The notes under the pieces were generated by a model. It was not told the origin of the DNA. It searched no databases and worked only from the letters and a program-made list of their open reading frames with translations. Below are positions 6,070 to 18,763 of a DNA stretch of 56,857 bases, one piece after another (position 1 is the first letter of the stretch; each line of letters opens with the position of its first letter). The stretch comes from Candidatus Wolfebacteria bacterium RIFOXYD12_FULL_48_21 (GTDB lineage: Bacteria > Patescibacteriota > Minisyncoccia > UBA6257 > UBA9933): contig MGIW01000003.1 in the NCBI GenBank assembly GCA_001793945.1, positions 1-56,857 of the forward strand, given 5' to 3'. Both the position numbers and the translations under genes were made by a program.

Positions 6070-6192
6070 GGCATAGTCTGAGCGGGATGTAAAAAATAGC
6101 GACTATTGGCGCTATTCCCAAAATCGCCGTATACCTTTTGCACTTTACTACATTTGCTTGATTAAGTATAAAAATTGTATCATATAGGTACT

Positions 6193-6414
6193 ATGGAAAA
6201 TACTATGGAACAACATGCCCCAAAAGGATGGGCGCCCGATGTTTGGCAAAAATTCAATAAGAAGATTGAGGAAATGTCCGAAGAAGAACTCATTAAGGCA
6301 TTCCACGATCTTGGCCTTGATTTTCAAGAGCCAGAAAAATTAACAAAAGACGATATCATTGCTGTGGCGGATGAATTATACGAAAAAGATGTAAAGGAAT
6401 ACTTTAAAATATAA
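6193..6414 (+). CDS. small hypothetical protein (73 aa), paralog of 7184-7429
   Basis: ATG chosen over the upstream TTG. Shares a W..W..F....E.LS.EEL.......G..F pattern with the 81-aa minus-strand protein. Followed by a hairpin. Confidence 0.45.
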   Translation: MENTMEQHAPKGWAPDVWQKFNKKIEEMSEEELIKAFHDLGLDFQEPEKLTKDDIIAVADELYEKDVKEYFKI

Positions 6415-6428
6415 CCTTGCTAATAAAA

Positions 6429-6452
6429 ATGCCCTCGGAAATCCGAGGGCAT
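6429..6452. terminator. hairpin terminator between convergent small genes
   Basis: GCCCTCGG-AAAT-CCGAGGGC. A T-run follows on the minus strand (ATTTTTATT); the T-run on the plus strand is weaker. Confidence 0.6.
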
Positions 6453-6483
6453 TTGCGTAGCACGACAAGAATGCTTGCACTCT

Positions 6484-6657
6484 CTATTTTGAAGCCGGGA
6501 TGTGAAGCTTGTCGCTTTGATCTCCTTTGTCATCGTAAACGCGCACATCCCGATGCGGTTCCGGATGACTCTTGCTCGTATGATTGCTGCTCGGCATACT
6601 TGATGTGTTTGGACTTCTTTTCTCCCCTTCCTTTGGGTACCTATTATCCTTACTCAC
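6484..6657 (-). CDS. 57-aa His/Asp/Lys-rich small protein (GTG start), not in the ORF track
   Basis: AGAGGTG precedes the GTG. Product: VSKDNRYPKEGEKRSPNTSSMPSSNHTSKSHPEPHRDVRVYDDKGDQSDKLHIPASK. Resembles the 63-aa product of 6965-7156. Sits behind leader L1 and ahead of the terminator. Confidence 0.4.
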   Translation of the reverse strand: MSKDNRYPKEGEKRSPNTSSMPSSNHTSKSHPEPHRDVRVYDDKGDQSDKLHIPASK

Positions 6658-6794
6658 GGCATCACCTCTTTTGTGTTAAGCATCTTACGGGCCGATCATT
6701 CTTTTTGAATGCTCAATTAAGCATTGTGCGCCGGCAAAATAATTGTCGTGTTCTGAGCTTATTATAGGATATATATATATATATATATTGTCAA
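6658..6794 (-). promoter_or_regulatory. L leader copy 1 with (TA)10-spacer promoter
   Basis: TTGACA (6789-6794), 22-nt spacer made mostly of TA repeats, TATAAT (6761-6766). The conserved core follows: TTGCCGGCGCACAATGCTTAATTGAGCATTCAAAAAGAATGATCGGC. Confidence 0.55.
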
Positions 6795-6820
6795 GGGCTT
6801 GCAGACATCCACTTTTACCC

Positions 6821-6940
6821 CTCCTTCTCCCACCATTTGCCGTCTTTTTCGGAAAAGAACCGTATTATTTGTTCTGCGGAATATTCTTTCATGGCTGGCA
6901 TATTGCCCTTAGTATAGGGGATTTTTGTGTTTGGTGCAAA
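6821..6940 (-). repeat. R module copy 1 (promoter plus leaderless 28-codon sORF)
   Basis: Minus strand: TTGCAC, 17 nt, TATACT, 9 nt, ATG. The sORF at 6815-6901 encodes MPAMKEYSAEQIIRFFSEKDGKWWEKEG and then stops. Confidence 0.85.
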
Positions 6941-6942
6941 AA

Positions 6943-6962
6943 AGAGGCGCCTGCGCGCCTCT
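6943..6962 (-). terminator. rho-independent terminator abutting R copy 1
   Basis: AGAGGCGC-GCAG-GCGCCTCT then TTTTTT on the minus strand. The T-run runs into the TTGCAC -35 of R. Confidence 0.7.
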
Positions 6963-6964
6963 TG

Positions 6965-7156
6965 CTAATCGTCATCTTTCCTTCCGAAAAACCCGGCAAG
7001 GAAATCCATGAAGCTTTCGCTTTCACGAACTCCATGAGTCTCGCCCTCCTTTTTCCCGTCATCACCATAGTGATAGTAATCAACATGGCGATAGGGATGC
7101 CCGGAACTTTCGTGCGGCTTACTCGGCTCAGTCGTGTTCGGAGTATGCTTGCTCAT
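6965..7156 (-). CDS. 63-aa His/Tyr/Asp-rich small protein
   Basis: MSKHTPNTTEPSKPHESSGHPYRHVDYYHYGDDGKKEGETHG...FMDFLAGFFGRKDDD. AAGGAGG lies ~7 nt upstream. Terminator follows immediately. Confidence 0.55.
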   Translation of the reverse strand: MSKHTPNTTEPSKPHESSGHPYRHVDYYHYGDDGKKEGETHGVRESESFMDFLAGFFGRKDDD

Positions 7157-7183
7157 CGCTACCTCCTTTTCGTTGTTCTGCGT

Positions 7184-7429
7184 TTAAGATAACTGTCTCT
7201 CCGCTTCTTCTACTTCGTATACAAGAGCCTCCTTTCTTGTCGCCTCAAGCAATGCGCCGGCGATATGCTCCTTGGGCGTGTATCCCGGCTCAAACTTTAT
7301 GCCATGCTTTTCGCACAGCGTTGAAAGCGATTCGTCAGACAACTTTTCCAATCGCCCCTCGAATTCCAGCCACTCTTCCCACTTCCATCCGTTCATCTCT
7401 TTACCCGGCCCAAAAGTTTGTTCGGTCAT
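7184..7429 (-). CDS. 81-aa hypothetical protein
   Basis: AGGAGG RBS. The start ATG overlaps the stop of a 24-codon upstream sORF (ATGA). Paralog of 6193-6414. Confidence 0.55.
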   Translation of the reverse strand: MTEQTFGPGKEMNGWKWEEWLEFEGRLEKLSDESLSTLCEKHGIKFEPGYTPKEHIAGALLEATRKEALVYEVEEAERQLS

Positions 7430-7508
7430 ATCTTCCTCCTATTATGATGTATATTTTCTGCTACCAATATGTGCTTATTACGACCTTTTGTCAATTGCAT
7501 ATAGAACC

Positions 7509-7628
7509 CTCCTTCTCCCACCATTTGCCGTCTTTTTCGGAAAAGAACCGTATTATTTGTTCTGCGGAATATTCTTTCATGGCTGGCATATTGCCCTTAG
7601 TATAGGGGATTTTTGCGTTTGGTGCAAA
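7509..7628 (-). repeat. R module copy 2
   Basis: Same promoter and start as copy 1. The sORF at 7491-7589 reads on to ...EKEGSICN (32 aa). Confidence 0.85.
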
Positions 7629-7643
7629 AAATGGGCAATCCGC

Positions 7644-8285
7644 TTATCGCCTCCAAAACTGCCATTTCTTATCTTTCTTTTCCTTGCGCTTTTTTTCTCC
7701 TATTATCCTTGCTTCGTCTTTTACCTTCTTCTTTAAATCCTCCGTGCGATATTCTTTTTCCAAATCATGCGCCTCCACTTGAAATCCTTTGTTTTCAAGC
7801 ATGCCTTTTACCCGTTCAAGATGGTTCACGCCCACAATAAATGCAATATTTCGTACACTATCTTTCTTTCTTAAATATTCCTCCAGTCCCTGCACGAACG
7901 CCTTTTCTCTTTTCTCGGTCGACGGTTTTATCCGTATAGTTAGAAATCTTTGCATTTTTGCATCGACAAAAATATGCTTATCGCCATATTTTTCTTCAAG
8001 TATTGTTTTCCCGGAATATATATTCTTTTTCCACCCGTCACCCGGAATCTTGTCGTATGGGCCGCCTTCTTCCACAATAAGATCGGGATTTTCTTCTTCA
8101 CATAATTGCAATAATTTATCCCGTAGCGTTTTTAAGGATGCGTCGAATATCCCTAATAGCTCTTCGGAAAATCCCGCGACCCTCATTTTTTTGATATGCC
8201 GCTTGATATGCCCCTTTGCCTGTATGTGATGCACTACTCCAATCAATTTAATATGTATTTTTTTATAATCTATTTCCTTTGTCAT
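7644..8285 (-). CDS. Tiki/TraB/GumN-like protein with K/R/E-rich tail (copy 1)
   Basis: Start at MTKEIDYKK. IKLIGVVH (GxxH), PDLIVEEGG and FIVGVNHLERVKGMLENKGFQVE resemble the two GxxH motifs plus an acidic motif of the TraB/GumN/ChaN fold. About 85% identical to 16042-16713. Confidence 0.45.
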   Translation of the reverse strand: MTKEIDYKKIHIKLIGVVHHIQAKGHIKRHIKKMRVAGFSEELLGIFDASLKTLRDKLLQLCEEENPDLIVEEGGPYDKIPGDGWKKNIYSGKTILEEKYGDKHIFVDAKMQRFLTIRIKPSTEKREKAFVQGLEEYLRKKDSVRNIAFIVGVNHLERVKGMLENKGFQVEAHDLEKEYRTEDLKKKVKDEARIIGEKKRKEKKDKKWQFWRR

Positions 8286-8305
8286 ATTATTATTTAGCAT
8301 AAGAA

Positions 8306-8331
8306 AAGGGCTCGCGAAACGCGAGCCCTTT
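8306..8331 (-). terminator. intercistronic hairpin (attenuator-like)
   Basis: GGGCTCGCG-TTTC-GCGAGCCC followed by TTTTCTTAT on the minus strand. Lies between the acidic peptide gene and the TraB-like gene. Confidence 0.5.
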
Positions 8332-8347
8332 AGTATAGCGATGACGA

Positions 8348-8503
8348 TCAATCGTCGTCGTCCGGCTCATTCCCCGAAGTATCCGAGTTGCTTCGTGGAT
8401 CATCGTTTCCACACTCCTTCCACGCCGTTTCTTCCGCCTGATCATCGGACACATCAGGATACCCCTCGTCGTCATCCCCAAAAATAAAGTCGAACAGTCC
8501 CAT
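8348..8503 (-). CDS. 51-aa highly acidic peptide (copy 1)
   Basis: AAGGAGG then 7 nt then ATG. Product: MGLFDFIFGDDDEGYPDVSDDQAEETAWKECGNDDPRSNSDTSGNEPDDDD. The longer start in the ORF track lies inside the leader. Confidence 0.6.
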   Translation of the reverse strand: MGLFDFIFGDDDEGYPDVSDDQAEETAWKECGNDDPRSNSDTSGNEPDDDD

Positions 8504-8635
8504 GGCTAAGCCTCCTTTGTGCCAAGTATTCTGCGTGCCGATCATTCTTTTTGAATGCTCAATTAAGCATTGTGCGCCGGCAAAATAATTGTCGTGTTCT
8601 GATTTACTTTATACCCTATATATAACTCTCGTCAA
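8504..8635 (-). promoter_or_regulatory. L leader copy 2 with well-spaced promoter
   Basis: TTGACG (8630-8635), 16-nt spacer with only (TA)4, TATAAA (8608-8613). Same conserved leader core as the other L copies. Confidence 0.6.
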
Positions 8636-8657
8636 TCCCCTGTAATGTCTACCTGCA

Positions 8658-9794
8658 TCACTCGAATCCAATTGCTTTATGCACTTCTTTAATATCAGCT
8701 TCGCGCTTTGCCTTTGATTCCTCTGTGTGATAATCCGGATCAAATATCGCATCCAAACTTACATCGAATTTACCCGACAAAACCTTCTCTCCCAATGCCA
8801 ATCTCCTTACTATATAAGCGATCACCGGACCGCACATCGTCGCGGCATCACCCAACTGTGGCCATGAATACAATGTCTTCCCCACTTCCAAAATAGATTG
8901 CTGCATGCGCGGAACCACCATATACGGGCCGGCTATTTGCGTTGCCAATTTAGGCATGTCGGTCGGCGCCATGGTCTTTAATGTTTCCATTGAAATATCC
9001 CCCGCCGCGCCGTTAAACAGCTGCAATTCCGGATCAAGGTCATGTCGCTCTATATCAACGATGACGCCATCGCCATTGTCGGTCGCCATGATAAGCGGCA
9101 AGCCCTTCTTTTTTGCCGCTTCACGCAACATGATCTTCATCGGCAAGAAATCCACTTCCTCTATTACCACATCTGCGCCATCCAAAAACTCATCCATATT
9201 CTCAGAAGATACACCCTTGTCGTACATATGCACCGTACCATAGGGGTTCAGCTGTACAATATGACTCGCGACCAAATGCGCTTTGTTCTTGTTCAGCGCG
9301 GAGCAATCATACCGTAATCGGTTCAGGTTTGGGCCGGAAACCACATCCGCATCGGCTATTTTGATCGTCTTCGCGCCACCCATCATGGCAATCGTCAAGG
9401 CCGGATGACTACCCACGCTTAATCCGGCAATGGCAACCGTATAGTTATAAAATTTTTCCTGCTCCTCTTTGGTGATTAGGTTTTTATTGCGCGCAGTCCG
9501 CAACTCTTGATGCACCGCATCCGGCAAATAATGGATCAGATTTTTCGTATACGGAAAATAGAACCACTCCCCATCTTCTTCCATCGACTTGCCCGCCAAA
9601 TATTCTTTTTTAAATGCGGCACAGTCTTCCTTGTGCTCGGGAATGAACTTATATTTTGGATTTCGTACCTGAAAAAGTTCGTCGAGCAATGCATCGTACG
9701 CATCTATGGTCTCGATGATCTCAAACTTTTTCTTGAAATCTTCCAGCGACTCCGTCGCCTTATTCCACTGCATCGGTTTTATTTGCGTATCCAT
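8658..9794 (-). CDS. ThiF/E1-like adenylyltransferase (Rv1355c-type ThiF domain, no nitroreductase domain)
   Basis: 378 aa. LRTARNKNLITKEEQEKF, VAIAGLSVGSH (Rossmann), ADADVVSGPNLNRLRY, IMATDNGDGVIVDIERHDLDP and LYSWPQLGDAA. 16-nt overlap with the upstream PaaK-like gene. Confidence 0.7.
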   Translation of the reverse strand: MDTQIKPMQWNKATESLEDFKKKFEIIETIDAYDALLDELFQVRNPKYKFIPEHKEDCAAFKKEYLAGKSMEEDGEWFYFPYTKNLIHYLPDAVHQELRTARNKNLITKEEQEKFYNYTVAIAGLSVGSHPALTIAMMGGAKTIKIADADVVSGPNLNRLRYDCSALNKNKAHLVASHIVQLNPYGTVHMYDKGVSSENMDEFLDGADVVIEEVDFLPMKIMLREAAKKKGLPLIMATDNGDGVIVDIERHDLDPELQLFNGAAGDISMETLKTMAPTDMPKLATQIAGPYMVVPRMQQSILEVGKTLYSWPQLGDAATMCGPVIAYIVRRLALGEKVLSGKFDVSLDAIFDPDYHTEESKAKREADIKEVHKAIGFE

Positions 9795-11284
9795 TTTTGT
9801 TTTGTTCCGGGCTTAAAATGAGTTGGATGTTCTGCGGGCCATAGGCTTATCTTCGGCCGCGCGCGCTCTTTCAAGTAATTCGAAAGTTCCCTGAATTCCG
9901 AATTGTTTTCGCGCAAGAATTTGAATACTTCCTCCGTCAGGATGTCTGCCAGTTTTTTGCTTTCCTTTTTTCCTTTTTTCATCTCGATGTGTATTTCGAG
10001 ATATTGGTTCTGCGCGTCATCAAATGCCGTCATCATGGAAAACTTTCCGGTTACATATGGATGCAACGCATCCTTCAGAAGCACCTCGCGAATCGTCTCC
10101 GGATAGATCTGTAAGCCGTAAAGCGTAGTCGAAAAGTCATTTCGCTCATACACATAAACGAATGGCAGTTGTTGCTCATTCTTCAACTTTGCCCTCTTCA
10201 TTTCCTTGCCCCAGTCGATCCCCTGAATTTTAATGCACTCCATCATTTCGCCATACCCTACCACTCCGCCATTATCTCCGATCGCGTAGCGGACCAACGG
10301 GATAGCACTATTCCCCGTAAGCACCACCTCGCCGTCCGAAGCCTCAAATATGATTTGCAACGGATTATATTGCGCCAGCGTCGGCGTTTTTTTAATTTCC
10401 GAAAAAATATCTTCAAACAACCCCATGTTTTTCATCGCCAATCTTCGTACAAGGATCGCCGTTGGCGTTTCAAATGCCATCGCGCCGATATCCGCAGAGC
10501 CATAAATGCTCATGATGTCTTGAAACAGATTCTTGATCCCTGTTTTTTCCACAAGGTAATCCCTGAAGTTCTCGGTGTATGCCTCTGCTGCGGTCACTAT
10601 GCGCATGTTCAGTTTTTTAAAATCCACCCCGCGCGAACTTCCTTCATCAATAATATCCTTTACCATTGGCGGATATCCCGCCAAAATAACCTGCCCGTAC
10701 AGCGGGGCTATATTTTTTAATGCTTTGAATATCTCTTCCTTATTTATTCCCGGCGTTATGATAGAAACAGGATATTTCCCCCGGTCCGCGGCAATCTCAA
10801 ACGCCTTATAGGTGATCAATCCACCGATCCAAATCCCCATCCCAAATGCCACTATGACCAATGTCGGCTTTTCAACACCAAAAGAACTGTTGCGCAAAAA
10901 AAATTCATGAATGAGTGCGGCATTTTTATCCGCCTCTTCTGTTCGGGGAAAATAAAACGGCTCCCCCGTAGAACCCGAAGTAGCCGTAAAAACAAGTGGT
11001 TTATTCAAATTTCCATCCCAGCACAATTTTTCCAATGGATACTGACGCAAATAATTCTTCTTGCTCGTCAATGGCACACGCTGAAAATCTTCCCAGGTCA
11101 CAATTTTATTATGATCCTTGATCCCGTTCTTTTTCAAAAAATCCTTGTAGGCCGGCACGCGCTGTGCGGCATCATGAAACAGCGCGAGTGCGCGCTTTCG
11201 TCCCTCCTTCTCCCACCATTTGCCGTCTTTTTCGGAAAAGAACCGTATTATTTGTTCTGCGGAATATTCTTTCATGGCTGGCAT
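9779..11284 (-). CDS. PaaK/coenzyme-F390-synthetase-like adenylate-forming enzyme
   Basis: 501 aa. FTATSGSTGEPFYFPRT matches the AMP-binding TSG(S/T)TG motif. The first 28 codons are supplied by R copy 3. Confidence 0.7.
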   Translation of the reverse strand: MPAMKEYSAEQIIRFFSEKDGKWWEKEGRKRALALFHDAAQRVPAYKDFLKKNGIKDHNKIVTWEDFQRVPLTSKKNYLRQYPLEKLCWDGNLNKPLVFTATSGSTGEPFYFPRTEEADKNAALIHEFFLRNSSFGVEKPTLVIVAFGMGIWIGGLITYKAFEIAADRGKYPVSIITPGINKEEIFKALKNIAPLYGQVILAGYPPMVKDIIDEGSSRGVDFKKLNMRIVTAAEAYTENFRDYLVEKTGIKNLFQDIMSIYGSADIGAMAFETPTAILVRRLAMKNMGLFEDIFSEIKKTPTLAQYNPLQIIFEASDGEVVLTGNSAIPLVRYAIGDNGGVVGYGEMMECIKIQGIDWGKEMKRAKLKNEQQLPFVYVYERNDFSTTLYGLQIYPETIREVLLKDALHPYVTGKFSMMTAFDDAQNQYLEIHIEMKKGKKESKKLADILTEEVFKFLRENNSEFRELSNYLKERARPKISLWPAEHPTHFKPGTKQKWIRK

Positions 11285-11323
11285 ATTGCCCTTAGTATAG
11301 GGGATTTTTGCGTTTGGTGCAAA
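11204..11323 (-). repeat. R module copy 3 (the only copy fused in frame to a long gene)
   Basis: Identical promoter and start. The reading frame continues as ...WWEKEGRKRALALFHDAAQRVPAYKDFL. Confidence 0.85.
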
Positions 11324-11341
11324 TATGTGGTTTTCAATTAT

Positions 11342-11370
11342 TTGACATTATTTTTATTTCGTATGATAAT
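11342..11370 (+). promoter_or_regulatory. sigma70-type promoter for radical SAM gene A
   Basis: TTGACA, 17 nt, GATAAT. About 50 nt upstream of the AAGGAG RBS and ATG at 11423. Divergent from R copy 3. Confidence 0.5.
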
Positions 11371-11422
11371 CTTTTCAGTATAGGAGTCTTTAACAATCAC
11401 ATATTCCATAAGGAGCTTTGTC

Positions 11423-12541
11423 ATGCAAAATTCTACACTCCCTGTTCTGCCCCAAGCCGTCATGCCTACTATTAAGGTCGTGTCGAGCACATGCAATCTT
11501 CGCTGCCACTATTGCTATTACAATGCATTAGACCAATCCCGCCCGAATCCAATGAGCACTAAGACTGTCACGAATTTGATCAAAAAAACGATTGAGTTTG
11601 TGCAAGACGACTATGTTCACTTCACATGGCACGGCGGAGAGCCTCTCTTGGCCGGAATGAATTTTTATGAACATATCCTCCGTATCCAAGAGCTGTACGG
11701 CAAGAAGAAAACAATCATCAACGGCATCCAAACCAATGCGACTCTTGTCAGTGACCGGTGGGCGAGCTTCTTCAAGAAACACGATTTCCGTGTTGGGGTA
11801 AGTATTGACGGCCCACCTATGATCCAAAATGCGCATCGAGTACTACCGTCACAAGGAGGAAGTTCTCGATTAGTACAACAAGGATTGCGTGCGCTCCAGC
11901 GCCATGACATCTACCCGCCAGCGATAGCGGTCGTTACCCGAGAATCCCTCGGCAATGCTCGGAAGATCTTCCAGTATTTCCTAAGGAACCATGTCCGTAG
12001 CATACACATCAAAGAATGCTACGAGATAGATCCTTCAACAGGGAGGCCCACTGCGCTTTCTGTTATGCCGGATGAATTCACTGCTTTCCTGATCGAAATA
12101 TTTGACATGTGGTTCGATCTGGATGACCCAAGTATTTCCATCAGAAATCTCGAGCAATTAGTTCGTGGCCTCGTCGGCGGTGAGCCATCCCTCTGCGAAG
12201 CCACGGGTAAATGCTGGCTCTTCCCCGTTGTTGAAGCAGATGGAACAGTTGGCGCATGCGATAGCTTCCCTATCCGTGACTATCACTTCGGCAACATAAA
12301 TGAAATGAGTTGGGGCGATCTCTTTGCAAGTGCCGGCAATATTCGATTCTCTGAGAATATCCGGCAAAATGAAGATAGGTGTCGCTCGTGCGAATGGTTT
12401 TCCATATGCCACGGGTGCTGCTTGCGTCATGCGCATTCCCCCGTTACTCACGAGTGGCACCATAATCTTTTCTGTACATCAAAAAAGCGCCTATTCGGCC
12501 ACATCAAGGCACGCATAGACGCAATTCATGCAGGGGGCTAG
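11423..12541 (+). CDS. radical SAM/SPASM maturase, anSME-like (A)
   Basis: CNLRCHYC (CX3CX2C), FTWHGGEPLL, GIQTNATLV, VGVSIDGP. C-terminal SPASM cysteines: CEATGKC...GACDSF...CRSCEWFSICHGCC. Confidence 0.8.
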   Translation: MQNSTLPVLPQAVMPTIKVVSSTCNLRCHYCYYNALDQSRPNPMSTKTVTNLIKKTIEFVQDDYVHFTWHGGEPLLAGMNFYEHILRIQELYGKKKTIINGIQTNATLVSDRWASFFKKHDFRVGVSIDGPPMIQNAHRVLPSQGGSSRLVQQGLRALQRHDIYPPAIAVVTRESLGNARKIFQYFLRNHVRSIHIKECYEIDPSTGRPTALSVMPDEFTAFLIEIFDMWFDLDDPSISIRNLEQLVRGLVGGEPSLCEATGKCWLFPVVEADGTVGACDSFPIRDYHFGNINEMSWGDLFASAGNIRFSENIRQNEDRCRSCEWFSICHGCCLRHAHSPVTHEWHHNLFCTSKKRLFGHIKARIDAIHAGG

Positions 12542-13563
12542 TAAGCCCCCTTTTTTATTACACTGATAACTCGTGTCATCTCGTCAATAAATTTCTTGTC
12601 GATTGCACGCTTCTTTTCAAAATAATATTGTGATAATGGATACATTTGCCATATCACATAATAGTACAGCCCATCATAAGAGATGATTTTCTTTTCTTTT
12701 ATCGCTTCCATATCATACAACAGCACATCGATCCACCCTAAATTTCTCAATAGCGGCGAGAAATGCTTTGCATGCGCTTGGTAGATGTACCCACTCGGAG
12801 CAATCCCCCCTACGACAATCTCGGTAAGAATATTTTTCTTGGACATTTTTGGCTGAACCAGATCTAATAAATCCATGCCGTCCCGTGATGCTGCCGCGCC
12901 AATGATCTTACTCAATTTTCTGTTGTTATCGAGAAGCACATGCACCATCTCATGCGCCATAACACCCAATGCGGTTTCCATATATTCATCAGAGTTATCT
13001 TCTATCGCTGCTTCCAATGTAATATGACCGCATCCCAAATTCGCACCGCCAGAGGCGCTTTTGTTGTTTATCGGACTCGGTATGATGTGCACGACAAAAT
13101 CCTCCAGCTTTTTATCGGGCTTGATCGCTCGCTCCATCGCCGCCATAAGCTTTATTCCATTTTCCGACTCCGCAATTTTCTTCAACGATCGACCCCATGC
13201 CTTGATCCCCTTCTCATCCCATATTTTTTTAAATCGTGGCTCGAACATGCGAAACACGCTCCGAATCTTTTTATACTCACCTTCCATTACATTTTTTTCT
13301 ACCTCCTCCCATGCTTCTTTCTCGGAGTTAAGAAAAAAATATTGTCCAAGATACACGAGTTTGTTCTTTTTATATTCAAACCCATATTTCCGCATAACAT
13401 CCCCAAAAACATTGATTGCTTCGCTTTCCTTTTCCGTCAGTACCCCCGTTTGCTTTATCCATTCTTTGTTATATTCAGTTCTGCATGAAAAATGCCACTC
13501 GGCAAGGTTCGAGATAAAGAAAAATAAATTTGAAATCCTTGAATGGACTATTTTATACTTCAT
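12538..13563 (-). CDS. HExxH putative zinc metallopeptidase (paralog of 22529-23383)
   Basis: Start at MKYKIVHSR. The longer ORF would overlap the precursor gene. Motif VMAHEMVHVLL. Shares SRxSNxxFF and ExxVxGxxPxGY blocks with the other HExxH protein. Stop overlaps the rSAM stop by 4 nt (convergent). Confidence 0.5.
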   Translation of the reverse strand: MKYKIVHSRISNLFFFISNLAEWHFSCRTEYNKEWIKQTGVLTEKESEAINVFGDVMRKYGFEYKKNKLVYLGQYFFLNSEKEAWEEVEKNVMEGEYKKIRSVFRMFEPRFKKIWDEKGIKAWGRSLKKIAESENGIKLMAAMERAIKPDKKLEDFVVHIIPSPINNKSASGGANLGCGHITLEAAIEDNSDEYMETALGVMAHEMVHVLLDNNRKLSKIIGAAASRDGMDLLDLVQPKMSKKNILTEIVVGGIAPSGYIYQAHAKHFSPLLRNLGWIDVLLYDMEAIKEKKIISYDGLYYYVIWQMYPLSQYYFEKKRAIDKKFIDEMTRVISVIKKGAY

Positions 13564-13600
13564 GATATTCAGTATACCAAAATGATTCGCACTATAAAAT

Positions 13601-13624
13601 AAAGGCTCACATCCGTGAGCCTTT
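13601..13624 (-). terminator. hairpin after the precursor-like sORF (partial terminator)
   Basis: AAAGGCTCAC-GGAT-GTGAGCCTTT then ATTTTAT on the minus strand. Lies between the 62-aa ORF and the HExxH gene. Confidence 0.5.
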
Positions 13625-13654
13625 ATACTATTCTCGACAACAGAACACCTTCCC

Positions 13655-13843
13655 TTAGCCAACAGACTTACTGTGGCCATTGCTGCTGTGGTTGTTGTAG
13701 CTCGGCCCATCATGATGGCAATACAGCCACTGATCACGCGCAACCCTCTCGATTGCACCGAGTACTAAGGCGCCTCGAGGCACCTGCGCACACCCATGAT
13801 TTCCACTTCCCAAACTCTTTTTGGGTACTACCGTTGTCTGCAT
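13655..13843 (-). CDS. 62-aa candidate RiPP precursor (A)
   Basis: AGGAGG then 7 nt then ATG. Product: MQTTVVPKKSLGSGNHGCAQVPRGALVLGAIERVARDQWLYCHHDGPSYNNHSSNGHSKSVG. Own promoter: TTGACA (13980-13985), 17 nt, CACAAT. Confidence 0.5.
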   Translation of the reverse strand: MQTTVVPKKSLGSGNHGCAQVPRGALVLGAIERVARDQWLYCHHDGPSYNNHSSNGHSKSVG

Positions 13844-13998
13844 AATACATCCTCCTTAGGCCAGTTGAATGAATCTTGCTTCTGTTGTTGATACTACTAC
13901 GCAATCAAATTCGATCAATGCGAATCGAATTGCATTTGATTAAATTACTAAATTAAATTGTGTGCTACTTCTACCGAATTGTCAAATGCCCACAAATA

Positions 13999-14117
13999 TC
14001 CTTCTCCCACCATTTGCCGTCTTTTTCGGAAAAGAACCGTATTATTTGCTCTGCGGAATAGTCTTTCATGGCTGGCATAGTGCCATTAGTATAGGGTATT
14101 TTTGGGGTTGGTGCAAA
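13999..14117 (-). repeat. R module copy 4 (most diverged)
   Basis: TTGCAC, 17 nt, ATACTA-type -10. The sORF at 13971-14078 encodes MPAMKDYSAEQIIRFFSEKDGKWWEKDICGHLTIR. The terminal AAGGAGG is mutated to AAGGAT. Confidence 0.8.
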
Positions 14118-14134
14118 AAAAAATAAAGGGATCC

Positions 14135-14623
14135 TTATCCTTTATTGATACCTGCTTTATTCATACGCTCTACCTGCGCTTTTAATTCAGCCAATGGCGG
14201 CACATTGAACCGAGCCCTTTCTTCGTCGGTCATCCCCTTCTTAATAGGGGCGAGCGCCCACTTGCTCTTGGCGCTTTTTTTAAAGAATTGCGTGCCAAAT
14301 TTTTGTTTCTTTCCTTGTTTTATCAATAGTCGATCGGTTCCTGCAGCATGGAGCCATTTCGCTTTTTGATACCCTTTTTTTATGCTTTGTTCGGAAAGCT
14401 TTATTGCCGTTTTATAATCAGCCAACAATTGCCCATGATGGAATATCATTGCTGCAATATAGAAATCTTTACCGGTAATTACCGTTCCCTCCTTTAGCAT
14501 TCTTTTTATAGTATTCTTGCGCTCGACATCTTTTTTTTCGACTACCGAAAAATCGCCGCTTGATCCGATTGCCATACGATCAGCTTGATCTTCTTTAAAC
14601 AATTTTTCCAGATCCTTGTTCAT
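14135..14623 (-). CDS. hypothetical protein (162 aa)
   Basis: Clean ORF with a T-run hairpin at its 3' end (14113-14145). I recognise no diagnostic motif. Confidence 0.5.
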   Translation of the reverse strand: MNKDLEKLFKEDQADRMAIGSSGDFSVVEKKDVERKNTIKRMLKEGTVITGKDFYIAAMIFHHGQLLADYKTAIKLSEQSIKKGYQKAKWLHAAGTDRLLIKQGKKQKFGTQFFKKSAKSKWALAPIKKGMTDEERARFNVPPLAELKAQVERMNKAGINKG

Positions 14624-14701
14624 AAAAAAATATCTACACCCTGCGCTGTGTAGCTATTATAAACTCAGACATCATTACGCACAAGCAAGTTCCCCGTGTA
14701 T

Positions 14702-15451
14702 TTAATCTTTATACTTAATAAACTTAAGCGTTTTTTCAAAAAGCTCCTTTTGGGCTTTTTTGCCGGAAAATAAATGATTGGTCTTTTTTAGTACATAATA
14801 TTTTGACTTGGCCTTGTCTGGTGTTGCACGATAATATTTTTTTGCATCTGTGTCCGTACTTCCTTCCGCAGTAACAATACATGCGTTTTTATGCAAGGAA
14901 TGGAATATGCCCACGGAATCGACGCTGCCAAGTTCTTTATAAAATTTTCCATTGATAGCTATTTTATTACCCTGATTTTTTAATGTTTTCTCCGAATCAA
15001 TAGCAAAGATCTTGTCCATTGCCTTTTTAGACCAGGGCAAGCGACTCTGATCCCATAAAACAAGCTTGGTATTTTTTAAATATTTTTTATTATTAAATAA
15101 AAATAATATTGACATAATTGCGCCAAAACTATGACCGACAAAAATAAACTCGAGATACTTTTTTGGCAATTTTTCTATAACATTTTTTAACTCACTGCTA
15201 TAAAAAGATAGATCGAGATCTTTTATATCAAGTGCATTTCTTTTTTGAATATCTTCATTGCAGAGATTTATACGAAGGGTATCAAAGCCGCTCTTACGAA
15301 AAATCTCCGTCGCATTAATAAAAAGCGGCAAGTCCCGTCCACCAGACAGTCCGCTTAAAAAAATAACGAGTCTTGAGTTGCTCTTTTTCGCAAAAAGTTT
15401 CCCATAAAGGAACCTGCCGGGGATTTTTTTTGATTCAATTTTTATCTCCAT
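14702..15451 (-). CDS. alpha/beta hydrolase
   Basis: Start at MEIKIESKK. Nucleophile elbow FVGHSFGA (GxSxG). Typical length of ~250 aa. Confidence 0.65.
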   Translation of the reverse strand: MEIKIESKKIPGRFLYGKLFAKKSNSRLVIFLSGLSGGRDLPLFINATEIFRKSGFDTLRINLCNEDIQKRNALDIKDLDLSFYSSELKNVIEKLPKKYLEFIFVGHSFGAIMSILFLFNNKKYLKNTKLVLWDQSRLPWSKKAMDKIFAIDSEKTLKNQGNKIAINGKFYKELGSVDSVGIFHSLHKNACIVTAEGSTDTDAKKYYRATPDKAKSKYYVLKKTNHLFSGKKAQKELFEKTLKFIKYKD

Positions 15452-15467
15452 GCTTTTAATTAAAAGG

Positions 15468-15502
15468 CCCCACCACAAAATATATTATCGTATGTGGTGG
15501 GG
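15468..15502 (-). terminator. 10-bp perfect hairpin between the DUF397-like gene and the hydrolase gene
   Basis: CCCCACCACA with a 15-nt loop and TGTGGTGGGG. The minus-strand 3' side is only moderately T-rich, so this could be an attenuator or a processing site. Confidence 0.35.
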
Positions 15503-15529
15503 CATTACACTGGAGCCCATGCTCAGCTT

Positions 15530-15742
15530 CTAAGGCAGATCGAACTCGCCCTTTTTTACGCCCTGGATAAAAGCATCCCACTCCGCATGGGTGAATGACA
15601 GAGTCGGGCTCTGCGGGTCTTTGGTATCTCTTACATCGACCGTTTCGCCGATTTTGACAGCGACACATGTTTTGATGTAAAGATATCTGGTAATTGAAGA
15701 AGTGAGAAATCCTTCCTCTTCGTGCGGATTCCGCTTAGACAT
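15530..15742 (-). CDS. DUF397-like small protein
   Basis: 70 aa. CVAVKIGETVDVRDTKDPQSPTLSFTHAEWDAFIQGVKKGEFDL closely follows the DUF397 pattern (CVEVA...VRDSKDP..P.L.F...EW.AF..GVK.GEFD). AAAGGAG RBS. Confidence 0.6.
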   Translation of the reverse strand: MSKRNPHEEEGFLTSSITRYLYIKTCVAVKIGETVDVRDTKDPQSPTLSFTHAEWDAFIQGVKKGEFDLP

Positions 15743-15879
15743 AATCAGCATCTCCTTTTCAATTTTTACTAACTATCTTGCGTGCCGATCATTCTTTTTG
15801 AATGCTCAATTAAGCATTGTGCGCCGGCAAAATAACTATCTTGTTCTGAGCTGATTATATGATATATATATATTGTCAA
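15743..15879 (-). promoter_or_regulatory. L leader copy 3 with (TA)6-spacer promoter
   Basis: TTGACA (15874-15879), 14-nt spacer, TATAAT (15854-15859). Conserved leader core identical to the other copies. Confidence 0.55.
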
Positions 15880-15905
15880 GGGCTTGCAGACATCCACTTT
15901 TACCC

Positions 15906-16025
15906 CTCCTTCTCCCACCATTTGCCGTCTTTTTCGGAAAAGAACCGTATTATTTGTTCTGCGGAATATTCTTTCATGGCTGGCATATTGCCCTTAGTAT
16001 AGGGGATTTTTGCGTTTGGTGCAAA
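15906..16025 (-). repeat. R module copy 5
   Basis: The sORF at 15900-15986 gives the same 28-aa product as copy 1. The flank through the L promoter is also shared with copy 1. Confidence 0.85.
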
Positions 16026-16041
16026 AATACGGGCAATTCGC

Positions 16042-16713
16042 TTATCGCCTCCAAAGCTGCCATTTTGGCCTTTTCTTTTCCTTCTTTTCTTTGCGCTTTT
16101 TTTCTCTCATTTTTAGCGCATTTTCTCTCATTCTCTGCGCATCTTCCCTTATTTTCCTTCTTAGATCGTCTGTATAATATTTATCACTCAAATTATGCGT
16201 CTCCACTTGAAATCCTTTATTTTCGAGCATAATTTTTACCCGCTCGAGATGGTTCACGCCCACAATAAATGCAACATTCCGCACATCACTTTTCTTCCTT
16301 AAATACTCCTCCAGCCCCCGTACGAACGCCTTTTCCCTTTTCTCGGTCGACGGTTTTATCCGTATAGTTAGGAATCTTTGCATTTTTGCATCGACAAAAA
16401 TATGCTTATCGCCATATTTTTCTTCAAGTATTGTTTTCCCGGAATATATATTCTTTTTCCACCGATCGGCTGGGGTTTTATCGTATGCCCCACCCTCCTC
16501 TACCACAAGGTCGGGATTTTCTTCTTCGCATAATTGCAACAATTCATTACGCAACGCTTTCAAAGTTATATCTAATACGCCCAGTAGGTCTTCGGAAAAT
16601 CCCTTGGCGCGCAACTTTTGAATATGCCACTTGATATGCCCGTTTGCTTGCACATAATGAACCAACCCGATCAATCTAATGTGTATTTTTTTGTATTCTA
16701 TTTCCTTTGTCAT
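16042..16713 (-). CDS. Tiki/TraB/GumN-like protein with K/R/E-rich tail (copy 2)
   Basis: 223 aa. IRLIGLVH, PDLVVEEGG and FIVGVNHLERVKIMLENKGFQVE. Paralog of 7644-8285. Confidence 0.45.
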   Translation of the reverse strand: MTKEIEYKKIHIRLIGLVHYVQANGHIKWHIQKLRAKGFSEDLLGVLDITLKALRNELLQLCEEENPDLVVEEGGAYDKTPADRWKKNIYSGKTILEEKYGDKHIFVDAKMQRFLTIRIKPSTEKREKAFVRGLEEYLRKKSDVRNVAFIVGVNHLERVKIMLENKGFQVETHNLSDKYYTDDLRRKIREDAQRMRENALKMREKKRKEKKEKKRPKWQLWRR

Positions 16714-16735
16714 ATTATTTATTCAGTATAAGAAT

Positions 16736-16759
16736 AGGGCTCGCGAAACGCGAGCCCTA
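16736..16759 (-). terminator. intercistronic hairpin (copy of 8306-8331)
   Basis: AGGGCTCGCG-TTTC-GCGAGCCCT. The downstream T-run is weaker than in copy 1. Confidence 0.4.
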
Positions 16760-16777
16760 TTGGAATCAATGCGGCGA

Positions 16778-16930
16778 TCAATCGTCTTCGCCCGGCACAT
16801 TTCCTGAGGTATCCGAGTTATCCTCAGGAGAACCCCCGGCCTCCTTCCACGCCGCTTCTTCCGCCTGATCGTCAGTCGCATCAGGATACCCCTCGTCGTC
16901 ATCCCCAAAAATGAAGTCGAACAATCCCAT
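16778..16930 (-). CDS. 50-aa highly acidic peptide (copy 2), not in the ORF track in this frame
   Basis: AGAGGTG then ATG. Product: MGLFDFIFGDDDEGYPDATDDQAEEAAWKEAGGSPEDNSDTSGNVPGEDD. The listed 16723-16956 ORF is a different frame. Confidence 0.6.
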   Translation of the reverse strand: MGLFDFIFGDDDEGYPDATDDQAEEAAWKEAGGSPEDNSDTSGNVPGEDD

Positions 16931-17065
16931 AGTAGCACCTCTTTTGTGTTAAGCATCTTACGGGCCGATCATTCTTTTTGAATGCTCAATTAAGCATTGT
17001 GCGCCGGCAAAATAACTATCTTGTTCTGAGCTGATTATATGATATATATATATAGCTCTTGTCAA
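16931..17065 (-). promoter_or_regulatory. L leader copy 4 with 20-nt TA-rich spacer promoter
   Basis: TTGACA (17060-17065), 20-nt spacer, TATAAT (17034-17039). The 5' part matches L3 and the 3' part matches L1. Confidence 0.55.
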
Positions 17066-17090
17066 TACCCTTACCAGCGCGCTTTTACCC

Positions 17091-17210
17091 CTCCTTCTCC
17101 CACCATTTGCCGTCTTTTTCGGAAAAGAACCGTATTATTTGTTCTGCGGAATATTCTTTCATGGCTGGCATAGTGCCCTTAGTATAGGGGATTTTTGCGT
17201 TTGGTGCAAA
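17091..17210 (-). repeat. R module copy 6
   Basis: The sORF at 17085-17171 gives the 28-aa product. Directly preceded by a terminator, as in copy 1. Confidence 0.85.
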
Positions 17211-17212
17211 AA

Positions 17213-17230
17213 AGAGGCGCTTGCGCCTCT
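17213..17230 (-). terminator. terminator (copy of 20414-20433)
   Basis: AGAGGCG-CAAG-CGCCTCT followed by TTTTTT on the minus strand. Follows the truncated response regulator. Confidence 0.6.
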
Positions 17231-17237
17231 TTTGTTT

Positions 17238-17489
17238 TTACCCTTTCATTAACGCTTGCCGGATCTTTTTTACCACTTCTTCGAGGTCGGTGCCTTTTTC
17301 CATAAAATCTACTGCGCCGAGCTCTTTTGCGAGTGCGTCCCTGTCTTTGAACACGGGCCATGGATTGCTCATGCTCGTGAAAAATATTACCTTTACATTT
17401 TTCATCTCCGGTATATCGCGTAACTCGATAAGATACTCCGTGCCATTCATGCCGGGCATGTTTATGTCGAGCAAAAGCAGGTACGCCAT
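17238..17489 (-). pseudogene. 5'-truncated duplicate of response regulator 20441-20833
   Basis: 17205-17482 is essentially identical to 20406-20685. It encodes only from LLLLDINMPG onward and lacks the N-terminal acidic pocket. A new ATG lies at the junction. Confidence 0.7.
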
Positions 17490-17563
17490 CGTATTGAGCT
17501 TTTAAACTGCATTGTGCTATTCTGAGCCTAACAGATGTCAATTCCCTATATAGATACTCGTAA

Positions 17564-17707
17564 ATATTTAAAGAACGCGCGAAGCTGCCCAATAAGAACG
17601 GCGAAGCCTATGAGTTCATGCTGGTCAAAGGTGACTTCGACATAGACTCGATACTATGGACACCAATGGAAGAGGCGGCAATAGCCCTCGCATACCCGCA
17701 AGAGTAG
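17564..17707 (+). pseudogene. Nudix-domain C-terminal remnant
   Basis: The open frame without a start codon reads ...NKNGEAYEFMLVKGDFDIDSILWTPMEEAAIALAYPQE. It parallels GGFDIDSILWLTIGDIVSTLTYPQE at the end of the GT4::Nudix protein. Confidence 0.55.
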
Positions 17708-17747
17708 AATCCAGTTAGGCAAATCATATTTAAGCACTTACTATAAA

Positions 17748-18750: not shown

Positions 18751-18763
18751 AACCGGGCTGCTG

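What the first reader, a model, noticed from the sequence alone, without database searches (positions are those of the whole stretch)
6815..17210. Six direct copies of a ~120-bp portable module: consensus promoter plus leaderless 28-codon start (R)
Copies lie at 6821-6940, 7509-7628, 11204-11323, 13999-14117, 15906-16025 and 17091-17210. All have the same orientation, and all are near-identical except copy 4.

On the minus strand each copy reads TTGCAC, 17 nt, TATACT, 9 nt, then ATG CCA GCC ATG AAA. This encodes MPAMKEYSAEQIIRFFSEKDGKWWEKEG. There is no Shine-Dalgarno sequence, so the transcript would be leaderless or nearly so.

Only copy 3 continues in frame into a real gene, the PaaK-like enzyme. 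That enzyme's family-typical sequence appears to begin only after the repeat. The other five copies stop after 28-35 codons and sit in front of unrelated cassettes:
- L leader plus small ORFs
- an 81-aa gene
- a RiPP-like precursor

Copies 1 and 6 directly abut a terminator hairpin whose T-run supplies the first T of the -35. The module carries two adjacent Trp codons and ends in AAGGAGG.

This does not look like a MITE, because it has no terminal inverted repeats. It is not a simple segmental duplication either, because most flanks differ. It behaves like a mobile or gene-converted expression module. I know of no described class that matches it.
Basis: seen in the sequence. Interest (0 to 1): 0.8.

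Follow-up and report, generated by a model that had tools for sequence, protein, structure and literature searches.

The report
Duplicated gene-start fragments bracketing inserted cassettes
The six 120-bp repeats are real. They are copies of the own promoter and first 28 codons of one conserved enzyme gene, left at the borders of small gene cassettes that recombination has piled into this locus of a Wolfebacteria (CPR) genome, so they show an active recombination hotspot rather than a new kind of mobile expression element.

Summary
There are six direct copies of about 122-125 nt on the minus strand. Five are 99-100% identical and copy 4 is 94% identical. None would be expected by chance.

R is not a free-standing module. 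It is the native promoter plus the conserved N-terminus of the 501-aa PaaK-like gene. Residues 6-28 align in at least 96% of 120 homologues (W24 in 98%, K19 in 88%). The same promoter hexamers, and an ATG 9 nt after the -10, occur in single-copy relatives.

Related Wolfebacteria carry a compact operon: RR, RR, PaaK-like, ThiF-like, nitroreductase, HisK. The junction between the second response regulator and the PaaK-like gene holds different cassettes in different lineages, with 1, 2 or 6 R copies.

Other gene ends are duplicated in the same way. A 283-bp 3' end of the response-regulator gene flanks a radical-SAM cassette. A 116-bp 3' end of the ThiF-like gene is also duplicated.

Copies within one genome are nearly identical, while copies in different species are only 80-92% alike. 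This indicates gene conversion. Each cassette has its own TTGACA promoter and its own terminator.

Best explanation: Campbell-type or unequal homologous insertion-duplication at a cassette hotspot, followed by homogenisation of the repeats. Interest is moderate.

The parts
6819..6943 (-). R copy 1: promoter plus 28-codon PaaK 5' fragment, then a stop. Preceded by a copy of the RR2 terminator (6935-6963) and followed by L.
7507..7631 (-). R copy 2: 32-codon ORF. Preceded by the terminator of the 235-aa gene and followed by the p81/p63 cassette with its own promoter (7494-7466).
11202..11326 (-). R copy 3: the functional copy. It is the promoter and first 28 codons of the intact PaaK-like gene.
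13999..14120 (-). R copy 4: the diverged copy (94%). It keeps the ancestral AACCCC and GAC (Asp) states seen in the 93% relative. 35-codon ORF. Followed by a cassette promoter at 13985-13957.
15904..16028 (-). R copy 5: 28-codon ORF. Preceded by the terminator of the 223-aa gene and followed by L.
17077..17213 (-). R copy 6: sits at the ancestral junction. Preceded by the RR2 3' fragment and terminator, collinear with the RR2-PaaK junction of relative L012. Homology to PaaK runs 14 nt past the common R end, with CGA changed to TAA.
9779..11284 (-). PaaK-like adenylate-forming enzyme gene (501 aa), the parent gene of R.
8658..9794 (-). ThiF-like (Rv1355c-family N-domain) gene, the operon partner of the PaaK-like gene.
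17205..17485 (-). Duplicate of the RR2 3' end plus terminator (283 bp, 98.6% to 20406-20688). It is the downstream bracket of the rSAM496/pep37/APH305 cassette.
20406..20688 (-). 3' end and terminator of the intact RR2 gene. It is the upstream bracket of the rSAM cassette. The terminator and T-run are followed by a cassette promoter (20388-20360) instead of R.
5404..5519 (-). Orphan copy of the ThiF 3' end (89.7% to 8665-8780). It is joined directly behind the truncated nitroreductase, which is the reverse of the ancestral order.
5509..6069 (-). Truncated nitroreductase: residues 1-171 of a protein that is about 353 aa in relatives. The rest of the gene and the HisK gene are absent from the window.
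6944..7506 (-). Cassette p81 plus p63, with its own promoter and a terminator. In relatives C, L029 and L030, and in variant contig L007, it lies directly upstream of PaaK.
7632..8657 (-). Cassette L' plus 65-aa acidic ORF plus 235-aa ORF. It is a paralogue (81%) of the cassette at 16029-17071.
11327..13998 (.). Cassette with a 406-aa ORF (-) and the radical-SAM/SPASM gene (372 aa, +).
14121..15903 (-). Cassette L plus DUF397 plus alpha/beta hydrolase plus a 162-aa ORF. In the 93% relative, L, DUF397 and the hydrolase lie between a truncated R and R:PaaK.
16029..17088 (-). Cassette L plus 50-aa acidic ORF plus 223-aa ORF.
6070..6818 (.). Terminal cassette L plus p57 (6484-6657, -) plus p79 (6175-6414, +). 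The same gene pair sits between RR2 and PaaK in relatives L026 and L028.
17486..20405 (.). Cassette radical-SAM (496 aa, -) plus 37-aa ORF (-) plus APH-like kinase (305 aa, +), bracketed by the 283-bp RR2 3' repeat.

Best explanation
R is the native sigma-70-type promoter, the (near-)leaderless start codon and the first 28 codons of the PaaK-like gene of a Candidatus Wolfebacteria genome.

The ancestral locus is a compact operon: aldolase, RR1, RR2, PaaK-like, ThiF-like, nitroreductase, HisK. The boundary between RR2 and the PaaK-like gene is a hotspot where self-contained cassettes (own promoter, one to three genes, own terminator) accumulate.

The extra R copies are by-products of how the cassettes got in. 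I infer homologous insertion-duplication. Either a circular or repeat-ended DNA carrying a cassette plus a stretch of the target integrated by Campbell-type crossover, or arrays with different cassettes underwent unequal crossover.

This process leaves one intact gene and one truncated end-fragment on the other side of the insert. It yields a promoter-bearing 5' fragment for PaaK and 3' fragments for RR2 and ThiF.

Once two R copies existed, recombination between R copies could add, move or delete cassettes. Gene conversion kept the copies identical to the selected copy in front of PaaK.

Each truncated R probably still fires as a promoter and makes a 28-35-aa peptide. I consider both incidental, because every cassette has its own promoter.

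Shown: the identity of R, the ancestral operon, the hotspot, the parallel duplications and the concerted evolution. Inferred: the recombination route, promoter activity, and the absence of a function for the peptide.
For: 1. The N-terminus is conserved. 2637 homologues of about 500 aa cover 95-100% of the query. P0002-P0018 read MK(D/E)YSAEQII.FFSEKDGKWWEKEG. Residues 6-28 are aligned in at least 96% of 120 homologues, with W24 at 98% and K19 at 88%.

2. Single-copy relatives have RR2, a terminator with its T-run, TTGCAC or TTGTAA/T, a 16-17-nt spacer, TATA(A/C)T, 9 nt, then ATG. The whole of R is therefore the native gene start.

3. Relatives at 70-93% protein identity show the compact operon (L012, L013, L027). 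Others show one cassette at the same junction: L026, L028, L029, L030, L016/L022 and CP011209.

4. The window's RR2' fragment plus R6 is collinear with the RR2-PaaK junction of L012.

5. Other gene ends are duplicated around inserts:
- RR2 3' end, 283 bp at 98.6%, in the window.
- RR2 3' end, 78 bp at 93.6%, in L026.
- ThiF 3' end, 116 bp, in the window.
- R, 84 bp, in lineage C, and R, 116 bp, in lineage B.

6. Evolution is concerted. Copies within a genome are 96-100% identical, while copies between species are 80-92% identical. R is 100% identical inside flanks of 55-88% identity. R6 and the upstream copy in lineage B share an orthologous R-L junction but carry different promoter variants.

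7. In CP011209 the extra copy lacks the promoter and the ATG and carries a T8-for-T7 frameshift. It is nevertheless nearly identical to the genic copy. This argues against selection on the peptide.

8. The cassettes carry their own promoters and terminators.

9. Variant contig L007 places p81-p63 between two R copies directly in front of PaaK. This is the product expected from R x R recombination, and it is also the arrangement seen in lineage C.
Against: - The event that created the first duplication was not observed.
- The 5' edge of R falls within 0-3 nt of the -35 at four different junction types. The 3' edges cluster within about 17 nt. This is tighter than random breakpoints would give. 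It needs serial propagation from few founding events, microhomology at terminator T-runs, or a site preference.
- No circular intermediates or read-level data were available.
- L007 could be a mis-walk through a collapsed repeat in the assembly graph.
- Lineages L028 and L030 carry a cassette with no duplication. Duplication is therefore not obligatory.
- I could not scan the rest of this genome for R copies outside the window.
Confidence: 0.65

Rival explanations
1. R is retained as a selected expression or co-regulation module. Duplicating the PaaK promoter in front of each cassette puts the cassettes under the same control as the PaaK-ThiF operon, possibly through the adjacent response regulators. 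R would then be adaptive rather than a scar. This reading can coexist with a recombinational origin.
For: The promoter hexamers and their spacing are conserved across lineages. Five of the six copies keep an intact promoter, start codon and ORF. All copies face the same way as most cassette genes. The ancestral operon is flanked by two response regulators and a histidine kinase.
Against: Every cassette has its own near-consensus promoter 12-24 nt after R, and in copies 1, 5 and 6 a second promoter plus the L leader follows R directly.

In lineage B the two copies share the coding part but differ in the promoter part. In lineage C the extra copy has no promoter at all. Homogenisation therefore tracks the coding homology, not promoter function.

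The histidine kinase is missing from this window. 3' gene fragments without promoters are duplicated in the same way.
Confidence: 0.2
2. R is an attachment site for a site-specific recombinase acting in trans. The cassettes would then be integrated and excised as in integrons, Xer-dependent dif modules or tandem islands at a gene end. The element would carry a replacement gene start, so that PaaK stays intact.
For: R has sharp and recurrent boundaries. The repeats are direct and bracket each cassette. The cassettes vary between lineages at one locus. A small imperfect palindrome (CCCCTATACTAAGGG) lies around the -10.
Against: No integrase or recombinase gene lies within about 10 kb on either side. 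The only candidate is an rve (IS-type) gene at the far end of L001.

R has no attC-like or dif-like inverted arms. The 3' junctions differ by up to 17 nt between events, and the lineage C copy has a different 5' edge.

Duplications of other segments with other lengths (78, 116 and 283 bp) flank inserts at the same locus. This fits homology-driven events better than a fixed core site.
Confidence: 0.1
3. R encodes a functional small peptide. This could be a multi-copy 28-aa gene, a RiPP precursor for the neighbouring radical-SAM enzymes, or a Trp-codon leader peptide acting as an attenuator.
For: There are five short intact ORFs with two adjacent Trp codons. Radical-SAM/SPASM genes and other small ORFs lie nearby.
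Against: The peptide is simply the conserved enzyme N-terminus. All copies are identical, with no variable core.

The copy in CP011209 and L029 lacks a start codon and is frameshifted. The C-terminal extensions differ arbitrarily (28, 32, 35 and 37 aa).

There is no alternative-hairpin structure: the fold z-score is 0.15. There is no Rfam match. The WW or FW pair is conserved in all homologues as protein sequence.
Confidence: 0.03

Closest known systems
Insertion-duplication (Campbell-type single-crossover integration) and the direct repeats of a gene end that flank integrated elements (for example, tRNA 3'-end duplications at island borders). Stated from general knowledge.
   Same: An insert is bracketed by direct repeats of a piece of the target gene. 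One copy of the gene stays intact and the other is a truncated end-fragment. Repeated events give tandem arrays separated by the repeat. Here this applies to the PaaK 5' end, the RR2 3' end and the ThiF 3' end.
   Different: No integrase, plasmid or phage backbone is present in the inserts. The inserts are tiny (0.6-3 kb) cassettes. The repeated piece is a promoter plus a 5' coding end, not a tRNA or 3' end. There are six copies in 10 kb. The copies are homogenised over their whole length.
Minimal mobile elements (MMEs) of Neisseria. [quoted passage not shown] 2007).
   Same: Two conserved genes (RR2 and the PaaK-like gene) have different whole-gene cassettes between them in different lineages. 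No dedicated mobility genes are present.
   Different: MMEs normally hold one alternative cassette per strain and do not duplicate the flanking gene. Here the cassettes are stacked, each separated by a copy of the flanking gene's start. Transformation and homologous exchange are not demonstrated for Wolfebacteria.
Integron cassette arrays. Stated from general knowledge.
   Same: A one-directional array of small, unrelated gene cassettes is separated by a repeated sequence next to a fixed platform.
   Different: There is no intI integrase, and no attI or attC palindromic sites. The cassettes carry their own promoters. The repeat is a fragment of a resident gene.
IS26-type translocatable units and pseudo-compound arrays. 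Stated from general knowledge.
   Same: Cassettes are each accompanied by one copy of a directly repeated element, can loop out as circles carrying one repeat, and can re-enter next to another copy. This builds arrays.
   Different: R encodes no transposase and has no terminal inverted repeats. Any such cycling would have to rely on host homologous recombination.

Membership tests
5' gene fragment (segmental duplicate) of the PaaK-like gene, homogenised by gene conversion | The copies are homologous to the parent gene's own promoter and first codons, and that N-terminus is a conserved part of the protein family. | tested here: met
5' gene fragment (segmental duplicate) of the PaaK-like gene, homogenised by gene conversion | Paralogous copies within a genome are more alike than orthologous copies between genomes, and identity drops sharply outside the repeat. 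| tested here: met
Minimal-mobile-element-type cassette site | Two conserved flanking genes have different whole-gene cassettes between them in different strains or lineages. | tested here: met
   The RR2/PaaK junction is empty in L012, L013 and L027. It holds p81-p63 in L019, L029 and L030, p57/p79 in L026 and L028, and L-DUF397-hydrolase in L016 and L022.
Minimal-mobile-element-type cassette site | The cassettes are incorporated by homologous recombination through the flanking genes (after DNA uptake). | not testable with these tools
   This is only inferred from the repeat structure.
MITE / IS-derived repeat | Terminal inverted repeats and short target-site duplications. | tested here: not met
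   The only inverted repeat is the neighbouring terminator stem at 6942-6963.
MITE / IS-derived repeat | Copies dispersed over unrelated loci of the genome. | tested here: inconclusive
   All six copies in the 57-kb window lie within 10.4 kb. The complete genome of relative CP011209 has only two pattern matches, and both are at this locus. The rest of the window's own genome could not be scanned.
Integron | An intI integrase gene with attI next to the array. | tested here: not met
   The precomputed Pfam annotation for about 10 kb on each side shows none. The only hit is an rve gene at the far end of L001.
Integron | Promoterless cassettes, each ending in an imperfect-palindrome attC site. | tested here: not met
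   The cassettes have their own TTGACA promoters and intrinsic terminators. R is not palindromic.
Leader-peptide attenuator (trp-type) | A short ORF with regulatory codons, followed by mutually exclusive terminator and antiterminator hairpins upstream of the regulated genes. | tested here: not met
   The fold z-score is 0.15. There is no Rfam hit. The WW pair is part of the conserved enzyme sequence.
RiPP precursor peptide family | Stand-alone precursor genes with a conserved leader and a variable or modified core, conserved as ORFs in relatives. | tested here: not met
   The copies are identical and equal the enzyme's N-terminus. The relative's copy lacks a start codon and is frameshifted.

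The most novel reading that the evidence does not exclude
The Wolfebacteria RR2/PaaK locus could be a genuine integrase-free cassette-capture platform. In this reading the 120-bp promoter-plus-leaderless-start segment serves both as the recombination site and as an outward-firing promoter. Self-contained cassettes would cycle as R-bearing circles between positions and between genomes by host homologous recombination and DNA uptake. The tight clustering of the R boundaries would then reflect a real site preference, not just descent from a few founding events.
Probability: 0.15. Interest if true: 0.65.

Novelty: new variant of a known kind. Interest (0 to 1): 0.35.

Why it matters
CPR/Patescibacteria are uncultivated and have tiny, streamlined genomes. 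Direct evidence for how they gain, lose and shuffle accessory genes is therefore scarce.

This locus gives a clean natural record of three things:
- A recurrent cassette hotspot between two conserved genes across several Wolfebacteria species.
- Insertions that duplicate gene ends so that the resident genes stay intact.
- Ongoing gene conversion over a 120-bp tract.

It also gives annotators a caution. Short 'leaderless peptide genes' with perfect promoters can be recombination scars.

The cassettes themselves may be of interest for competition or secondary metabolism in these episymbionts. They include radical-SAM/SPASM genes with small ORFs and APH-like kinases, pairs of small proteins, and a conserved L leader.

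Tried and rejected
- RNA element: the R transcript folds no better than shuffled sequence (z = 0.15). Rfam at gathering threshold finds only the tmRNA. The relaxed Rfam scan gives one chance-level hit at the RR2 terminator.
- MITE or transposon: R has no terminal inverted repeats.
- Attenuator or RiPP precursor: rejected because the peptide is the conserved enzyme N-terminus and a relative's copy is non-coding.
- Assembly artefact: rejected, because four independent assemblies give the same six-copy order. The single variant contig L007 cannot be distinguished from a mis-walk through the repeat.
- My interim idea that the second ATG is the true start: dropped. The first ATG, 9 nt after the -10, is the one kept in lineages B, C, D and L030, where the second is AAG, AAA or ACG.
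- Search for p81 homologues in other genomic contexts: only three protein clusters exist, and those whose context I inspected lie at this locus. There is therefore no evidence that the cassettes move to other sites.
- Collection scans with a degenerate R pattern did not return the window's own genome. Genome-wide copy number in this species remains unknown.
- Pfam gives no hit for the PaaK-like protein. NCBIfam gives only sub-threshold PaaK matches.

Full report
**1.

The repeat finder reports a six-member direct-repeat family between 6.8 and 17.2 kb. An alignment of the six copies on the minus strand shows an invariant block. It runs from the T-run before TTGCAC to ...GAGAAGGAGGG, and the flanks are unrelated in most copies.

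By BLAST the copies lie at 6819-6943, 7507-7631, 11202-11326, 13999-14120, 15904-16028 and 17089-17213. Five are 99-100% identical and copy 4 is 94% identical. A 41-nt core occurs six times, and never in 100 shuffles.

Each copy reads TTGCAC, 17 nt, TATACT, 9 nt, ATG. The ORFs are 28, 32, 501, 35, 28 and 28 codons long. Copies 1 and 6 abut a G+C-rich terminator hairpin.

The same six-copy order appears in independent assemblies of the same population from several groundwater samples (L001, L002, L003, L006). Many shorter contigs break exactly at R. The repeats are therefore real and not an assembly artefact.

**2. R is the native start of the PaaK-like gene**

The 501-aa ORF that continues from copy 3 has more than 2600 homologues. 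Almost all are about 500 aa long and cover 95-100% of the query. Those that carry a name come from Patescibacteria/CPR. NCBIfam gives only sub-threshold PaaK-type matches.

The N-termini of the closest 17 homologues read M..MK(D/E)YSAEQII.FFSEKDGKWWEKEG. More distant ones keep YSAEqIl.lirtKk..FW.rEre. In an alignment of 120 homologues, residues 6-28 of the window protein are occupied in at least 96% of the sequences. K19 is kept in 88%, W24 in 98% and I12 in 72%.

The non-coding half of R is native too. In relatives with a single copy, the sequence is RR2 stop, terminator with T-run, TTGCAC or TTGTAA/TTGTAT, a 16-17-nt spacer, TATACT or TATAAT, 9 nt, ATG (L012, L013, L018/L019, L030). The hexamers and the spacing are kept while the spacer sequence drifts. 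That is the footprint of a real promoter.

The ATG 9 nt after the -10 is kept in lineages A, B, C, D and L030. The second ATG is AAG, AAA or ACG in three of them. A leaderless or nearly leaderless start is therefore plausible. It is a property of the PaaK-like gene, not of a portable module.

**3. The locus in relatives**

The collection scans place the family in Candidatus Wolfebacteria.

Relatives at 76-87% PaaK identity have a compact operon: aldolase, RR1, RR2, PaaK-like, ThiF-like (378 aa), nitroreductase (about 353 aa), HisK. These are L012, L013/L017/L020/L025 and L027.

Other lineages carry one cassette at the RR2/PaaK boundary:
- p81-p63 in CP011209/L019/L023 and L029, with an 84-nt R fragment upstream. 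That fragment is 96.4% identical to the genic copy, has no promoter and carries a T8/T7 frameshift.
- p81-p63 without any duplication in L030/L031.
- The p57/p79 gene pair in L026 and L028, in opposite orientations. In L026 it is flanked by a 78-bp duplicate of the RR2 3' end.
- L-DUF397-hydrolase in the 93% relative (L011, L016, L022, L024), flanked by two R copies that are 97.4% alike over 116 nt.

R copy number is therefore 1, 2 or 6, depending on the lineage.

**4. The window genome is the extreme case**

Read along the minus strand, the order is:
- aldolase, RR1, RR2, terminator T
- [rSAM496, pep37, APH305(+)]
- RR2' fragment, T, R6
- [L, acid50, p223], R5
- [L, DUF397, hydrolase, p162], R4
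- [p406, rSAM372(+)], R3:PaaK, ThiF
- [L', acid65, p235], R2
- [p81, p63, T], R1
- [L, p57, p79(+)]
- nitroreductase residues 1-171, then a ThiF 3' fragment.

RR2' plus R6 is collinear with the RR2-PaaK junction of L012 (82.6% over 407 nt). R6 therefore marks the ancestral junction.

The radical-SAM cassette is bracketed by a 283-bp direct repeat of the RR2 3' end plus terminator, at 98.6% identity. The ThiF 3' end is present twice. The nitroreductase is truncated, and HisK is absent from the window.

R is thus only the most amplified of several duplicated gene ends at this locus. Each duplication leaves one intact gene and one fragment.

**5. The cassettes do not need R**

A near-consensus promoter (TTGACA, 17 nt, xAxAxT) begins 12-24 nt after the end of each truncated R and after the RR2 terminator. 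These sit at 7494, 13985, 6794 and 20388, plus the L promoters. Each cassette ends in a terminator whose T-run abuts the next R.

For the p81 cassette in three lineages, homology starts exactly at its -35.

**6. Concerted evolution**

Within each genome the R copies are nearly identical. Between species they are 80-92% alike.

In the R2 and R5 paralogous blocks, identity is 55-88% in the flanks and jumps to 100% across R.

Copy 4 keeps ancestral states that it shares with the 93% relative (AACCCC in the spacer, and GAC for Asp). The other five copies share derived states.

R6 and the upstream copy of lineage B share an orthologous R-L junction but carry different promoter variants. At least one copy must therefore have been overwritten.

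In lineage B the homogenised tract covers the coding part but not the promoter. In lineage C the extra copy is non-coding yet almost identical to the genic copy. Homogenisation therefore reflects gene conversion, or very recent copying, from the selected genic copy. It does not reflect selection on a peptide or on promoter identity.

**7. Mechanism (inferred)**

Campbell-type integration of a DNA circle that carries a 5'-terminal gene fragment, including its promoter, yields fragment-insert-intact gene. A 3'-terminal fragment yields intact gene-insert-fragment. Both patterns are seen here, for PaaK and for RR2 and ThiF respectively.

Circles carrying one R plus a cassette can arise by R x R looping-out. 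Unequal crossover between arrays with different cassettes would stack them.

The triple R+L block of 260-300 bp fits such homology-driven propagation. So does the duplicated L-acidic-p223/235-R unit (81% over 1.18 kb).

Contig L007 has R, p81, p63, R:PaaK immediately after rSAM372. This is the product predicted from excising the R2 cassette and re-integrating it at R3, and it mirrors the order in lineage C. It could also be a mis-walk through a collapsed repeat in the assembly graph.

Precise R x R deletion would restore a scar-free compact operon. The patchy distribution of cassettes therefore cannot be polarised with confidence.

**8. What remains unexplained**

The 5' edge of R lies within 0-3 nt of the -35 at four different junction types. 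The 3' edges fall in a 17-nt window: after GAAGGA, after GGAGGG, or after ..AAAGCG.

Three factors can account for this: descent from a few founding events, microhomology at terminator T-runs, and selection for an intact promoter in front of PaaK. A site preference is not excluded.

No recombinase gene lies within about 10 kb. The only candidate is an IS-type rve gene at the far end. R has no inverted arms.

**9. Comparison with known systems**

The locus satisfies the descriptive definition of a minimal mobile element: two conserved genes with different whole-gene cassettes between them, incorporated by homologous recombination (PMC3082526). It differs in that cassettes are stacked and the flanking gene's start is duplicated.

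It resembles the duplication of gene ends at the borders of integrated elements, but without an integrase or an element backbone.

It resembles an integron array only in its layout. It fails the integrase, attC and promoterless-cassette criteria.

No paper in the library combined 'Wolfebacteria' with 'direct repeats'. I found no description of this arrangement. I regard it as a new variant of known recombination outcomes, not a new class of element.

**10. Verdict**

The 'portable promoter-plus-leaderless-ORF module of no known class' reading is replaced by 'duplicated native gene start marking a recombinational cassette hotspot, homogenised by gene conversion'.

Confidence that R is the PaaK gene's own start is about 0.95. 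Confidence in the homology-driven insertion-duplication route is about 0.6.

Interest is moderate (0.35). The locus is an informative natural record of recombination and cassette flux in CPR bacteria, but standard processes explain it.

Noticed in passing
window 6670-6780, 8516-8626, 15763-15873, 16943-17053 (minus strand); L016 about 3925-4040 (minus strand): The 'L' element is a TTGACA..TATAAT promoter followed by a leader of about 75 nt. The leader is almost invariant within the genome and in the 93% relative (TTATTTTGCCGGCGCACAATGCTTAATTGAGCATTCAAAAAGAATGATCGGC). It precedes different genes: an acidic 50/65-aa ORF, DUF397 and p57. RNAalifold predicts two small hairpins with one compensatory change, and there is no Rfam match. 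It is a candidate cis-regulatory 5' UTR.
   Followed up: partly
window 24877-24956, 38174-38285, 39325-39436, 54038-54115; also 35686-35778, 42587-42649, 47912-48060, 49668-49817: Two related families of repeats, mostly intergenic, have inverted ends (GGAATGACAATGCG ... GTGTCATCCCG) and internal palindromes. They are MITE- or REP-like elements scattered through the other half of the window. They are unrelated to R.
   Followed up: partly
window 18898-20388 / 18764-18877 / 17748-18665; 23619-24722 / 22529-23383; 11423-12541 / 12538-13758; 4363-5265: There are three paralogous radical-SAM(/SPASM) genes. Each lies next to an oppositely oriented or adjacent partner. Two are APH-like kinases. The 284-aa and 406-aa proteins share a distant C-terminal similarity. 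One set also has a 37-aa ORF. These look like RiPP-type maturation cassettes. The 93% relative L011 carries an ATP-grasp (MvdD-type) gene plus a 46-aa ORF downstream of HisK.
   Followed up: partly
window 5404-6069 (minus strand): The nitroreductase is cut after residue 171 of about 353. It is joined directly to an orphan 116-nt ThiF 3' end, which is the reverse of the ancestral ThiF-nitroreductase order. The HisK gene that follows in all relatives is missing from the window. This suggests a former tandem duplication followed by deletion.
   Followed up: partly
L026 4402-5121 versus L028 9012-10000: The same two-gene cassette (homologues of p57 and p79) sits between RR2 and PaaK in opposite orientations in two lineages. 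Only L026 shows a flanking 78-bp RR2 3' duplication.
   Followed up: partly
window 7184-7429 / 6965-7156 versus 6175-6414 / 6484-6657: p81 and p79 are distant paralogues (29% identity). p63 is about 40% identical to the L026 and L028 homologues of p57. The small-protein pair has therefore been duplicated and has diverged. The p81 family has only three clusters in a database of 5.8 billion proteins.
   Followed up: partly
window 36509-36850 (+): tmRNA gene with tag peptide ANKTAVPAFAFA.
   Followed up: no
L028 4573-6450: In the 71% relative, a large serine recombinase (625 aa) and a set of small ORFs are inserted next to a truncated YchF gene upstream of the aldolase. This is probably an integrated element near the same neighbourhood.
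   Followed up: no
window about 1-73 (minus strand) / L001 21217-21506: An rve-family (IS-type) integrase gene starts at the very edge of the window. It lies about 4 kb beyond the end of the cassette region.
   Followed up: no
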